In this document: positions 17,691 to 52,850 of the stretch, piece by piece
Numbering within the stretch: position 1 is the stretch's first letter
How the letters are laid out: the number at the start of each line of letters is the position of its first letter
DNA from: Torpedo marmorata
Lineage: Eukaryota
DNA: 64,000 nucleotides
Assembly (NCBI GenBank): GCA_977017645.1
Contig: OZ360230.1
Span: 74,152,001-74,216,000 of the forward strand
Direction of reading: 5' to 3'
The notes under the pieces: model-generated
Database searches by the model: none
Seen by the model: the letters and a program-made list of their open reading frames with translations, nothing else
What the model was told of the DNA's origin: nothing
Made by a program: the position numbers and the translations under genes

Positions 17691-17969
17691 TGAATATCAT
17701 AAGGAGGAAACATGGTGGTACATTTTGTTGGAATTTATATTGTCAAGGCATGTTTATGAACAAATGAAAAACAATACTTGATGCTTTTTTCTTGAAGACA
17801 CTGCATCTTTAAAGCTCTGATATTTTGATTTTTGAAACAAGAAAGCAGTGATGCCAATAAGTGCTTTAAACGTTCCAGACACATGTTTATCACCTTTTAG
17901 ACCTAGAATAGCAATTTTGTAATAAAGTGATGCAGCATTAATATACAATAAATGTTATTGTGCTTTCAG

Positions 17970-18184
17970 CAATCTCAGATCCAAGCAACACAGTTCACAG
18001 GCCACAGCCTCTGCCGCCGACATCAGTTCACCAGAGCAGTCTCCCTTCTACTCCAGACAGCAGTTCAGCTTACTGCTTATCCTCCAGCAGGCATGGATTC
18101 TCAGGGTACACAGACAGCTTTGTGTCTCCAGCAGGGTCTACCAATCCCATGAACCCAACGGTTAGCAACGGCCTCTCACCTCAG
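17970..18184 (+). CDS. pax3: Pax3 exon 7
   Basis: ctttcAG|CA...CCTCAG|GTcagt; 215 nt; (A)[71 protein letters not shown]. Confidence 0.98.
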
Positions 18185-31491: not shown

Positions 31492-32386
31492 GTAAAAGGT
31501 GAATATAAATTTAAAGATAGGAAAACTTTAAATTATAACATGCAGAACATGTAAAAAATAAACTAAAAATGGAAATATGCTTTTCATAAAATTATTAATT
31601 AATCATTAAAAAAATATATCCCTGTGACTGTTGTAGTATTTATTTTTATTTATGCAACTCCAACAAATTGTGAAATGGAATAAATGCCAACATTAATGTA
31701 AATTTCATGCGAACAATTCCCCTCTATATTTCTGACACAGGGTTGACATGTATGCTTACTTCTTTACACAGACATATTTTGACTTATTCCAAACAGATAT
31801 GCATTTACGTTATACAACAGCCATAATGGATATATTAAAATGTAAAATGATACAATGGTAGAAAAACCCTTTCCTGCATTGTGCAGGCGTAGTTCATTGT
31901 AATGTTTTTTACATAAGAAAATATTATGAAAGTTAATGATTGAGAACATATGAGCAAAAGAGAAGAAAAAAATTAAATGCCACTGATAAGGAAACTAGAA
32001 AACTTCAGTTTGCCAGTAACTCATTTGGATTCTCTGGAGCACCATCAGATATGTACATTCTAAATTTAAAGTTACAAAAGGTCACCAAACAGATTTTATT
32101 TCGTTTCCCAAATTTACATATAACTCAAGTCCTTAGAAGTTCAGTTACACACTGAAGACAAAATAACATGGTATCAGATACTGAGAAAAAAAATCCAAAT
32201 TAAATTGATAGTTGCCCTCTTTTAATAAATGTATGTCATGCGGTTTTATTGTAAAAGCACCCAAAGTGGTTTAACCTCCAAAGTATTTTACTGTTCCTTC
32301 AGGGTGATCTGAGGAAAATTTGAGATCCAGGTACAGAACATTTGATCCATATTTTTCACTTTAGGATTGTGATTTTTTTTATGGAC

Positions 32387-32780
32387 TCTGATGAAGGATT
32401 TTTGACCTGAAACATTAGCTCTTTATATTTCCACAGATGTTGCATGACCTGCTGAATTTCTCTCGCATTTCTGTATTTATGTAAATGTACAATTTTAATT
32501 AAAGCTATTAACTAGGATAATGAATTTCAAAATTCCTTATTTAAATTATAATAATCATATAATATTCACTGTGATAAACAAATATAAGTTTATCATGGTG
32601 AATATGAATGAGTATTATAATTTAAATAAGAAATGTTTATATTCATTATCCCAGCTAAATAGCTTTAATTAAAGTTGTACATTTACATAAATACAGAAAT
32701 GCTAGAAAAACTCAGCAGGTCATGCTGCATCTGTGGAAATATAAAGAGCTAATGCTTCAGGTCAAAAATCCTTCATCAGA
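32387..32780. repeat. 394-bp near-perfect palindrome (193-nt arms, 8-nt loop) bounded by PLE hammerhead cores
   Basis: Arms 32387-32579 and 32588-32780 are reverse complements at about 90% by hand alignment; both start with tctgatgaaggatttttgacctgaa. Confidence 0.95.
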
Positions 32781-32796
32781 ACTAAGTATAATAGGT

Positions 32797-33460
32797 AAAA
32801 TGCAAGCTGCTGGAGAAACTCAATGGGTCAGCCAGAATCTGTGGAGGCAAAGAGATGGTCCATGTTCAGGTCAAAACCCTGCATCAGGATTGAGAGTGTA
32901 AAGAGCAGATAGCCAGTATAAAGAGGTGAGAGGAGGGATGAGGCAGGAGATGGCAAGTGATGTGGATCCAGGTGAGGAGGGGGTTGATGGTCAGATGGTG
33001 ACAGGTGGGGTAGGGGAGGACGGAGATAGTGACAGGGGCTGGGAGTTCATAAATGGAGTTAAAAAAGGGTGGTATTTTGATAAGATTCTGAGAAGATAGG
33101 AAAGTGAATAGTACAACCAGATGAGGGAGGGCTGGTGAATAGATGGAAACAGTAGGTGCAGGAGATAGGGGACCCAGTGTATTGTGTGCGTGGGGATAGG
33201 CAGATGGAACCAGTGGGGAAGGTGAATGAAACTGAGTAACTGGGGGCTGGGGGTTTTGAAAGAAGATTGTGTCAGTGGATCAGAAGACAAGAGAAAGAAA
33301 CCCAGGATGTGTGGGTTAGCTAACCCACACACCCTGTATTCCTTTCTAACTCTTTCTGATCCCTTTGCCTCCACGGATGCTGCCAGACCCACTGAGTTTT
33401 CAAGAATTAGGGTTTTTTTGCTCCAGATTCCAGCATCTTCAGTCTCTTGTGTCTCTAAAT
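32797..33460 (-). mobile_element. Penelope-like element remnant with inverted terminal copy
   Basis: Left gctggagaaactcaatgggtcagccagaatctgtggaggcaaag is inverted at right (ctttgcctccacggatgctgccagacccactgag); purine-rich interior; minus-strand CTGATGCAggg..cctGAA core. Confidence 0.7.
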
Positions 33461-42629: not shown

Positions 42630-43335
42630 TGCAGTGCCTCCCAGTGGCCAACTACTTCAATTCCACACCTCATTGTCACACTGACATGTCTGTCTATAGC
42701 AGTGGTTCTCAACCTTTTTTTTCCCACTCACATACCACCTTAAGTAATCCCTTACTAACCACAGAGCACCTATGGCATCCTATGCCATCGGTGCCCTGTG
42801 GTTAGGGATTACTTAAGGTAGTATATGAGTGGAAAAAAAGGTTGAGAACTACTGGTCTATGGCCTTATGTACTGCAAGTTGAGACCAGCTGCAAAACAGA
42901 GGAACAACACCTTATATTCCGTCTCGGCAGTCTCCAAACAGACAGCATTACAGTAATATCGAATTCTCCAATTTCCATTAACCCTCTCTCCTGGCCTCTC
43001 TCTTTCCCTCATCCCTCTGCCTTCCTGCAGTTCAACACCCCCTCTTTTCCTCCTATCAGAGAGCTATCTTTCTTAGCCCTCTGCCCTCTCCCCATCATTT
43101 CACAGCTTCTTTCTCTTCTATCCTTCCACCTGTATCTACCTATTACCTCTTACGTTACCCAGTGTTTCTCCCCCTTCTCCCCATCCCTTTCCCCATCACC
43201 TTTTTATTCCACCATCTGCCATATTTTCAGCACTCCTGACAAAGGGTTCAGGCCCAAAACATCAAAGACCTTTTACTTTCTGTGGATGCTGCGTGATCTT
43301 TCTGAGTTTCTCCTGCACTTTTGTGTACTGCCCAG
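42630..43335 (+). mobile_element. Penelope-like element 3' part (GIY-YIG C-terminus and terminal repeat)
   Basis: LPVANYFNSTPHCHTDMSVY|GL...EEQHLIFRLGSLQ; terminal cCTGACAAagggttcaggcccAAAAcatc is a CpG-decayed CTGACGA..CGAAACGTC. Confidence 0.85.
42700..42854. mobile_element. Fully palindromic hAT-Charlie MITE inserted in the PLE
   Basis: TIRs cagtggttctcaacc / ggttgagaactactg; TSD gtctatag / gtctatgg (7/8); whole element folds back on itself. Confidence 0.92.
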
Positions 43336-50822: not shown

Positions 50823-51069
50823 GTAATGGGACTCTTGGCAAATCCTGGTGGTGTTCCACATCAACCACAAACTGACTATGCCCTCTCACCACTAACTGGA
50901 GGCCTGGAACCATCTACTTCTGTTTCTGCAAGTTGTAGTCAGCGGCTAGACCCAATGAAACCTCTCGACAGCTTGCCCACTTCCCAGTCATACTGTCCAT
51001 CAACTTATAGCTCCTCAGGTTACAGTGTGGATCCAGTGACAGGATACCAGTATGGACAATATGGGCAAA
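50823..51069 (+). CDS. pax3: Pax3 exon 8 (transactivation domain)
   Basis: ctctgcAG|GTA...CAAA|GTaagt; 247 nt; [82 protein letters not shown]. Confidence 0.98.
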
Positions 51070-52850
51070 GTAAGTGCCATGTAAATCTAAGCAATACATT
51101 TAGCTATAAAAATGCATACCCACCCCATCCTTCATCGATTTGTATCAAAATGTGTGACTCTGTATACAAACTTTGAATATGAATGTGAAATTCAATATGA
51201 CTTTATTAGTCTTGTGTAAAATAAATAATTACAAAATATATTGCTCCTTTAGTTTGGTTTGGCACTTAGTGCAACATTCCAGCCAAATGCACAAACAGAG
51301 CATACAAAATGTATTAAAAAGAAAAATGTACATTTGGTCAACATTTATTTGATTCAGATGATGATGAGAGGGCCTATTATTAACTTAAAGACTTTAAAGG
51401 CTTAATGTTATATTTCATTTGAGGAACAAAAGAAGGAGTGACATTTTTCTATACTGTACAGTTGTGGTATCTGAAAATGCAACGTCTTTCCGTGCTTGGA
51501 TAGCAGTCTACGTTGGATGTTACCACGGTCTGGCGAGGCTACAATCAGGATTTTTTCCCTTCAAATTCAATTAGACTACCAAAAATCTGTTAACATGAAA
51601 ATATTTAATCTTAAAAGCAAGCAGACAGATGATACTTTACTTTTTTTAAGTTAGCTGGTTGTAGTTTTAATCAATAAATTAAGAACACAAAATGTTTAGG
51701 TACCTTAGGCTGTCATACAAGATTTTTTTAAACAAATGTTTGCGTTGAGCTACACTGACTAAAGCTATGGCAGCATCTCCCTTTTAATCATTTATGTGAC
51801 ATAGTATCTGTTTTTAGTTGGCATGTAATCCAGAAGTTCAATCCATTATTTTTTAAATTTTAATTTTCACTGCATTGGAAGCTTCTTCAATTGCATTGTA
51901 TTTGACTTCAGAACAGCAGTTTTATTCAACATTATTACAGTAATTGTAATCTCTCTGCACTACTTACATTTTTAAACACATTGGTTAAAAGTATCGTCGA
52001 ATACTGTGTATTATATTTGAACAGTTGTTAAATAATTCAAAATAGACAGATCTACAAATCCATTAAAAGAGAATGCATGAAAGATTTGATGTGAACATAT
52101 TATTTTGAGTATGCAGTGGAATGCCAGACTATTTTGTTGCACAGTATTACTTTTGTACTTCTAAAGACTTAAAGTTGCTTCAATTGAAATATTAATGTTA
52201 ATTTGTAAATCTTTCCTCTTAAAGTTACCTTCCTCTACAATATAAAGCTAAACAAATCTGTAGTCACAATTAGTGTTACTGTTCAATATATATATATAGA
52301 GAGAGAGCACAAATGGAAAGAAACTTAATTTTGGCAAGATGAGTTTTTGTCATAAGGGACCACTGGAAAGTCAATAAATTGAGTTAGATCACTCAGATAA
52401 TGGGTACAAAAATCCTGAAAAGACATTGCCATGCACTTGAAAACTTCTGCCTATTTCTAACAAAATTTTGTTGAAGAGCTGAGTTAAAGCACTCTATATA
52501 ATTATCTTCAGTTCTGTCAGCAGCATCTTGATGTGATTAATTGCCAGGACCTAATATATGCTTGCCATTTATGTAGAACCTAAGGCCAAGGTCTGTCAAA
52601 AAATAAAGCAGCCACTGGAATGTCACTATTAAAAACACATGTTCTAAGAAAGGCCAAATCAGGCATCATCTTGGACAATATTGCTGGATCCGTGTGGTAC
52701 TGTCAAACTTGTCCTAATATAAACAAAGTAACCCTCTTAGTTTTGGCAGGCATGATTAGCCCTGACAACATTGTACCTGCATTTGACGTGGCCCCTTGCA
52801 ACGATGTTGTCACAAGAAGCATTCCTAAGTTTCTTTTACTTCCATTACAG

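What the first reader, a model, noticed from the sequence alone, without database searches (positions are those of the whole stretch)
32387..32780. 394-bp hairpin in pax3 intron 7 whose two ends are hammerhead-ribozyme cores and whose inner ~105 bp is duplicated non-repeat DNA
Seen: the 193-nt arms are reverse complements (about 17 substitutions and 2 indels by hand) with an 8-nt loop. Both arms begin at TCTGATGA-aggatttttgacct-GAA(A/G)CATT, the CUGAUGA/stem II/GAAA hammerhead core of the local Penelope terminus. The PLE 3' ends point inward here, unlike the other local PLE palindromes whose 3' ends point outward, and ~105 bp of AT-rich sequence beyond the PLE end is also mirrored. Known: Penelope-like elements carry minimal hammerheads in their terminal repeats and often make inverted ends. 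Inference: either a fold-back copy of a PLE end plus transduced 3' flank, or an undescribed ribozyme-bounded hairpin element. In pax3 pre-mRNA it would form ~190 bp of dsRNA, a possible ADAR or Dicer substrate. Mismatches are a mix of G-U and A-C types, so I see no evidence of selection at the RNA level.
Basis: partly seen in the sequence, partly recalled or inferred. Interest (0 to 1): 0.72.

Follow-up and report, generated by a model that had tools for sequence, protein, structure and literature searches.

The report
Local fold-back duplication in pax3 intron
A 193-base stretch of an intron, made of a decayed jumping-gene stub plus its flank, sits next to its own mirror copy; it is likely an ordinary DNA-repair accident of a kind seen elsewhere in this genome, not a mobile element, and its ribozyme-like ends are predicted to be inactive.

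Summary
The hairpin is real: 193-nt arms, 17 substitutions, 2 gap columns, 8-nt loop. Contigs from two other coded organisms carry it and both junctions, so it is not an assembly artefact. It is not a mobile element: the inner 106 bp hits only its two arms, and there is no duplication around the whole hairpin. The Penelope stub had decayed before it was mirrored: the arms share 18 differences from the family majority against 6 private ones. Both hammerheads fail published features, and only one lies on the sense strand. Stubs of this family usually start at the hammerhead (29 of 40). Similar mirrors exist with no Penelope at all (L134, L135: 155- and 235-bp arms). Best reading: a local snap-back inverted duplication, possibly at a staggered break, given a 12-nt direct repeat between loop and right flank (p about 0.006). 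A side finding, L071, shows a young Penelope insertion carrying an inverted copy of its own target. The scan earlier noted a similar local inversion-duplication in this genome (e1-9908957). Ordinary.

The parts
32387..32579 (+). Left arm, 193 nt; likely the original sequence
   Evidence: direction inferred
32387..32480 (+). Decayed, 5'-truncated Penelope-like terminal stub; best other genomic copies 80-87% identical, right-arm copy 94%
   Evidence: 34-nt 88% tail match to a GIY-YIG-bearing young element
32388..32416 (+). Minimal-hammerhead remnant: core letters present, but 15.2/16.2 = C/A (not palindromic) and G10.1 opposite U; buried in the long duplex in the predicted fold
32481..32579 (+). 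AT-rich (82%) single-copy flank, mirrored in the right arm
32580..32587 (.). 8-nt loop. Organism B has two extra T after 32579, which would give a 2-bp self-priming seed around a 6-nt loop (inferred)
32577..32587 (+). First copy of a TSD-like direct repeat
   Evidence: 10 of 12 columns; 0.6% of 6322 local positions score as well
32588..32780 (-). Right arm, inverted copy; its hammerhead remnant (antisense to the gene) also has A15.1 changed to G at 32755
32780..32791 (+). Second copy of the TSD-like direct repeat; two further differences in organism B
32796..33444 (.). Neighbouring head-to-head Penelope-like insertion of another subfamily; its arms are 77-85% alike, so it is likely older than the hairpin and not its trigger
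17966..18172 (+). Upstream pax3/7-family exon (context)
50829..51083 (+). Downstream pax3/7-family exon (context)
   Evidence: recalled motifs; no Pfam hit

Best explanation
This is a local inverted duplication, found nowhere else in the genome, of an already decayed Penelope-like stub plus about 100 bp of flank, likely made when a DNA 3' end snapped back on a 2-bp seed and copied its own strand. Shown: mirror geometry, no other hit for the inner part, decay of the stub before copying, presence in organisms A and B, independent decay of the arms, and similar mirrors of unique DNA elsewhere. Inferred: the left arm is the original; a staggered break left a 12-14-nt 3' overhang; a polymerase copied 193 nt; the new end was joined to the other side, leaving the short direct repeat. 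The hairpin would form dsRNA in pre-mRNA, but nothing suggests it is selected, and both hammerhead remnants are predicted to be inactive.
For: (1) The inner 106 bp has 2 hits, both arms. The whole-hairpin query matches elsewhere only over the stub. (2) Arm-to-arm identity in the stub is 94%, against at most 87% to the 38 other listed copies. (3) Over 96 columns the arms share 18 differences from the majority of 28 copies (about 6 are a 3'-end alignment shift) against 4 left-only and 2 right-only. (4) Organism A has one contig spanning loop and both arms; organism B (25 differences in 651 flank bases) has contigs over both junctions and the loop. Over 32516-32546, B's right arm equals the window's left arm, while B's left arm has two private changes and the window's right arm has its own cluster, so changes are not mirrored. 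(5) The class recurs without Penelope: L134 (155-bp arms, 82%) and L135 (235-bp arms, 98.7%) have no repeat next to them; L136 and L062 fold on a MITE; L112 abuts a truncated RT element. (6) The direct repeat between loop and right flank is matched by 0.6% of local positions, and the opposite polarity shows nothing. (7) There is precedent for 2-bp self-primed inverted duplications with TSD-like overlap at L1 cuts (bioRxiv 10.1101/2024.12.14.628481, section 9) and for template-switch inverted repeats (PMC5453318, passages).
Against: The copy ends within about 1 nt of the stub's start; I estimate about a 2% coincidence if the end point is random. The TSD-like match is AT-rich, imperfect, and worse in organism B's right copy. 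L134, L135 and L136 show no such loop-to-flank repeat. The right flank weakly resembles the family's upstream sequence (background p 0.047, shuffle p 0.14), which would make the right arm the original. No empty site was found. 0 unique-DNA mirrors were seen in 560 kb of sampled stretches.
Confidence: 0.7

Rival explanations
1. A Penelope enzyme made it. Its endonuclease cut both strands with a stagger of about 14 nt, and its reverse transcriptase copied the local strand or nascent intron RNA, stopping at the hammerhead where the family's own copies often stop.
For: The TSD-like repeat. Family copies start at the hammerhead in 29 of 40 cases, and 10 of 27 lie within 8 nt upstream of it for the young subfamily. 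L071 holds a young Penelope, an inverted copy of its target (mirror arms about 180 nt) and a short element end inside a repeat of about 14 bp; removing the insert restores a continuous older copy. A purified PLE protein cleaves and extends both strands and prefers AT-rich DNA (PMC11167929). Self-priming on a sense template is predicted to give tail-to-tail repeats (PMC3846280, passage).
Against: No new element sequence lies between the repeats here. In L062 and L071 the copy ran through a hammerhead without stopping. 0 of 20 inward-facing pairs that I picked from the 50 listed (535 in all) had a mirrored interior. The neighbouring insertion looks older.
Confidence: 0.15
2. Two independent, inward-facing stubs (about 75% alike) were converted into a perfect mirror by a quasi-palindrome template switch, which ended where their homology ended.
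For: It explains the shared end point. Inward-facing unmirrored pairs are common: 18 of 22 sites were not mirrors, nor were 9 of 10. The right flank weakly resembles family sequence. The mechanism is classical (PMC5453318).
Against: It leaves the TSD-like repeat to chance (p about 0.006-0.012). The flank score of 11.6 is below all 9 clearly extended copies (13.5-21.1).
Confidence: 0.1
3. A mobile, ribozyme-bounded hairpin element, or a 3' transduction inserted from a donor elsewhere.
For: Both ends begin at the hammerhead core.
Against: No donor or second copy. No repeat flanking the whole hairpin. Decayed ribozymes. The ends lie 5' of the core, not at the cleavage site.
Confidence: 0.02
4. 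A selected RNA hairpin that regulates the host gene through ADAR or Dicer.
For: A very stable predicted fold, kept in three coded lineages.
Against: Mismatches are not biased to G-U (4 of 17). Lineage-specific changes are uncompensated. Arm divergence (about 9%) exceeds flank divergence to organism B (about 4%), as expected for neutral decay.
Confidence: 0.03

Closest known systems
Self-primed inverted duplication at a DNA break (L1-induced ends, bioRxiv 10.1101/2024.12.14.628481; section 9 and passages read)
   Same: Short loop, 2-bp priming seed (inferred from organism B's allele), inverted copy of adjacent genomic DNA, TSD-like overlap
   Different: No retroelement insert accompanies this copy; it is germline and old; the cutting enzyme is unknown
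Short-range template switch, four-point type 1-4-3-2 / 3-2-1-4 (PMC5453318; passages read)
   Same: A local reverse-complement copy creates a new hairpin in one step
   Different: The passages I saw discuss clusters of tens of bases and favour inter-strand switches; this copy is 193 nt, and its four switch points cannot be fixed without the empty site
Inverted-pLTR (head-to-head) insertions of EN+ Penelope-like elements (PMC3846280; passages read)
   Same: Inverted terminal stubs carrying a minimal hammerhead
   Different: Tails point inward, host DNA is mirrored, there is no TSD around the whole, and the stub decayed before duplication
Minimal type I hammerheads of metazoan PLEs (PMC4209133; parts 1-2 of 4 read)
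   Same: CUGAUGA / stem II / GAAA / UH remnant
   Different: The palindromic 15.2-16.2 pair and G10.1-C11.1 are lost; one copy per strand, so no dimer partner

Membership tests
Functional minimal hammerhead (PMC4209133) | Core CUGANGA and GAAA with A15.1, and UH | tested here: inconclusive
   Left arm met; right arm has G at 15.1
Functional minimal hammerhead (PMC4209133) | Palindromic positions 15.2-16.2 | tested here: not met
   C/A in both arms; the intact young subfamily has CG (listing)
Functional minimal hammerhead (PMC4209133) | G10.1-C11.1 pair and stable helix II | tested here: not met
   G opposite U by sequence; local fold -5.6 and -5.9 against -12.5 kcal/mol for a young copy
Functional minimal hammerhead (PMC4209133) | Second copy on the same RNA for dimer folding | tested here: not met
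   The two remnants lie on opposite strands; the left one is buried in the duplex
Functional minimal hammerhead (PMC4209133) | Self-cleavage | not testable with these tools
   Needs an in vitro assay
Penelope-like element remnant (outer 94 nt) | Homology to the terminus of a GIY-YIG-encoding element | tested here: met
   88% over 34 nt plus the hammerhead word; GIY-YIG at E 0.0019, below Pfam's cutoff, in L117 of that subfamily. Direct linkage of this stub's own subfamily to an ORF was not shown
Head-to-head PLE insertion | 3' ends outward inside one TSD | tested here: not met
   3' ends inward; flanks differ
Non-autonomous mobile element (MITE, foldback, retrozyme) | Multiple dispersed or tandem copies | tested here: not met
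   caveat: the search skips common words
Non-autonomous mobile element (MITE, foldback, retrozyme) | TSD flanking the whole unit | tested here: not met
Local snap-back or template-switch inverted duplication | Adjacent reverse-complement copy of otherwise single-copy DNA with a short loop | tested here: met
Local snap-back or template-switch inverted duplication | Microhomology seed at the loop | tested here: inconclusive
   2-bp seed only with organism B's allele, from one contig
Local snap-back or template-switch inverted duplication | Pre-event allele with one arm in an outgroup | not testable with these tools
   No relatives are held; the two laid organisms that cover the site have the hairpin; organism C gave no flank cover

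The most novel reading that the evidence does not exclude
Penelope enzymes routinely write inverted copies of host DNA at their cut sites, with or without inserting themselves, so they seed long intronic dsRNA hairpins across this genome. L071 is a full product, and this hairpin is an insert-free one whose copy stopped at the hammerhead.
Probability: 0.15. Interest if true: 0.55.

Novelty: new member of a known kind. Interest (0 to 1): 0.22.

Why it matters
As it stands it matters little: it is one old, likely neutral mirror among a rough order of 10^4 in this genome (estimate). It is a ready example of how long hairpins arise in one step, the raw material proposed for new miRNAs (PMC10710096, search listing only). 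If the novel case held, it would extend to Penelope elements, in the germline, a rearrangement so far read about only for L1, and would give a genomic read-out of two-strand cutting by the Penelope protein.

Tried and rejected
Assembly artefact: rejected. Rfam: 3 weak matches in the window, none here. A strict 16+16-letter inward pattern found 0 sites, and could not have matched this hairpin itself. Gaps above 385 nt were not searched. A control 10-mer found 0 sites with control 0, uninformative; another found only this hairpin, control 3. None of the 28 closest stub copies has a mirrored flank; several are head-to-head. The neighbouring insertion as trigger: disfavoured by its greater arm divergence. 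A short poly(A) retro-insert at the left edge: rejected because organisms A and B both break the T-run at 32376. No RNA holder was listed, so editing and small RNAs were not examined. Runs X3 and X4 added nothing on the arms. Pfam gave no hit for a 79-aa element fragment or the last exon. No supplements were read; those of the L1 preprint are closed and may hold further examples.

Full report
Observation. The hairpin is as described. Arms 32387-32579 and 32588-32780 are 193 nt each, with 17 substitutions, 2 gap columns and an 8-nt loop; the RNA fold has z -30.9. The outer 94 nt or so of each arm belong to a dispersed family: 69 profile hits in 560 kb of sampled stretches. The family shares its tail and hammerhead word with a young element whose ORF has a weak GIY-YIG match. 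The inner 99 nt are 82% A+T and hit only the two arms in the 6.2-Gb genome, with the tool's caveat that common words are skipped. The site lies in a long intron of a Pax3/7-family gene; the name pax3 and the intron number are recalled.

Not an artefact. In run X1 (organism A, 8 differences in about 560 flank bases) one contig spans the loop and both inner arms, and others bridge both junctions. In run X2 (organism B, 25 differences in 651) contigs bridge both junctions and cross the loop into the second arm. The arms differ by about 9% and the flank differs from B by about 4%, so the event predates that split (inference). X1 may be the assembly's own source and is not independent support.

Not a mobile unit. 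The whole-hairpin query matches elsewhere only over the stub. The two stubs are 94% alike, against at most 87% to the 38 other listed copies, so one arm was copied from the other. No repeat flanks the whole, and none of the 28 closest copies has a mirrored flank.

Order of events. Over 96 columns both arms share 18 differences from the majority of 28 copies, about 6 of them a shift at the 3' end. Only 4 are left-specific and 2 right-specific. The stub was therefore already decayed when it was mirrored, unless it came from a divergent source element, and the mirror is not a by-product of that stub's insertion. The neighbouring head-to-head insertion has arms 77-85% alike over short stretches and is likely older than the mirror.

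The ribozymes. By the features in PMC4209133 (parts 1-2 of 4 read), both remnants lack the palindromic 15.2-16.2 pair and the G10.1-C11.1 pair, and the right one also has G at 15.1. They lie on opposite strands, so one transcript carries one copy, and that paper found no cleavage for a single minimal motif. The sense copy is buried in the duplex. The arms begin 5' of the core, not at the cleavage site. Starting there is usual for the family: 29 of 40 hits that include the hammerhead start within about 10 nt of it (other subfamilies may inflate this), as do 10 of 27 within 8 nt upstream for the young subfamily.

No sign of selection. Mismatches are 4 G-U, 6 A-C and 7 other. Over 32516-32546, organism B's right arm equals the window's left arm, while B's left arm has two private changes and the window's right arm carries its own cluster. 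Changes are not mirrored.

The class. With this hammerhead word as bait at gaps 130-385, 22 sites were found and all were fetched; 4 are mirrors, namely this one, L062, L071 and L072. In L062 and L071 the mirror runs 42 and 93 nt beyond the word; L072 ends 7 nt beyond it, but the gap setting forces that. A second stub word gave 10 sites, and only this one is a mirror by the listing. With non-Penelope 9-mers, 3 of 9 other sites (control 4) and 3 of 46 (control 25, judged from the listing, many from one satellite) were mirrors. L134 and L135 have 155- and 235-bp arms of unique DNA with no adjacent repeat, L136 folds on a MITE, L112 abuts a truncated RT element, and L111 and L113 lie inside repeats. 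About 1 mirror per 10^4 bait sites implies a rough order of 10^4 in the genome; this is my estimate from 4 events. I saw 0 in 56 sampled 10-kb stretches, 10 of them next to the window. For the young subfamily, 535 inward-facing pairs exist; of the 50 listed I picked 20, and none has a mirrored interior. Inward stubs with a mirrored flank are thus not a regular Penelope product.

Mechanism. The end of the left arm plus loop (32577-32587) recurs right after the right arm (32780-32791) at 10 of 12 columns; 0.6% of 6322 local positions score as well, and the opposite polarity gives nothing. Organism B's two extra T at the loop supply a 2-bp seed. This fits a staggered break whose 3' overhang snapped back, was extended 193 nt and was rejoined. 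The same geometry is reported at L1 cuts (bioRxiv 10.1101/2024.12.14.628481, section 9 and passages). Against it: B's right copy has two more differences; L134-L136 lack such a repeat; the right flank weakly resembles family sequence (p 0.047 and 0.14); and the copy ends at the stub's start, about a 2% coincidence by my estimate. A replication template switch (PMC5453318, passages) gives the same product, and I count it within the best explanation.

The Penelope-driven rival stays open because of L071. There a young element of about 576 nt, an inverted copy of its target and a short element end lie inside a repeat of about 14 bp, and removing them restores a continuous older copy (124 nt, 1 gap). 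A purified PLE protein cuts and extends both strands (PMC11167929, parts 1-2 of 4), and PMC3846280 (passages) predicts tail-to-tail repeats from sense self-priming. Three searches (listings only) showed no paper on inverted target copies at Penelope insertions; this is not a full literature check.

Verdict. A real feature and a new member of a known kind: a local inverted duplication, likely neutral, with predicted-inactive ribozyme remnants. Interest 0.22.

Noticed in passing
L071:831-1768 (G000:C56:13512438-13515611): A young Penelope-like insertion with an inverted copy of its own target DNA (mirror arms about 180 nt) and a short element end, all inside a repeat of about 14 bp; the clearest case seen of insertion-coupled inverted target duplication.
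   Followed up: partly
L112:941-1253: 156-bp arms of unique DNA abutting the truncated end of an RT-encoding element (410-942); an 8-bp repeat links the element's other end to the right-arm start.
   Followed up: partly
L135:2899-3368: A young 470-bp palindrome of unique DNA (98.7%) with essentially no loop and no adjacent repeat.
   Followed up: partly
L062:1460-1859 and L136:2980-3189: Mirrors centred on the same MITE family of about 150 bp as window 42700-42854, suggesting that MITE hairpins seed fold-back copying of their flanks.
   Followed up: partly
L072:1494-1659: Mirror of about 70 bp abutting what looks like a 5'-truncated LINE/SINE tail (identity recalled, not tested).
   Followed up: no
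L116, L118, L125, L130, L133 near position 1496: Five independent Penelope-like copies are 5'-truncated at the same place, about 5 nt upstream of the hammerhead word.
   Followed up: partly
L113:995-1258: 71-nt inverted arms (94%) with a 122-nt spacer inside what looks like an LTR retrotransposon.
   Followed up: no
window 42638-42955: The MITE at 42700-42854 interrupts a decayed Penelope-like ORF end (tblastn).
   Followed up: no
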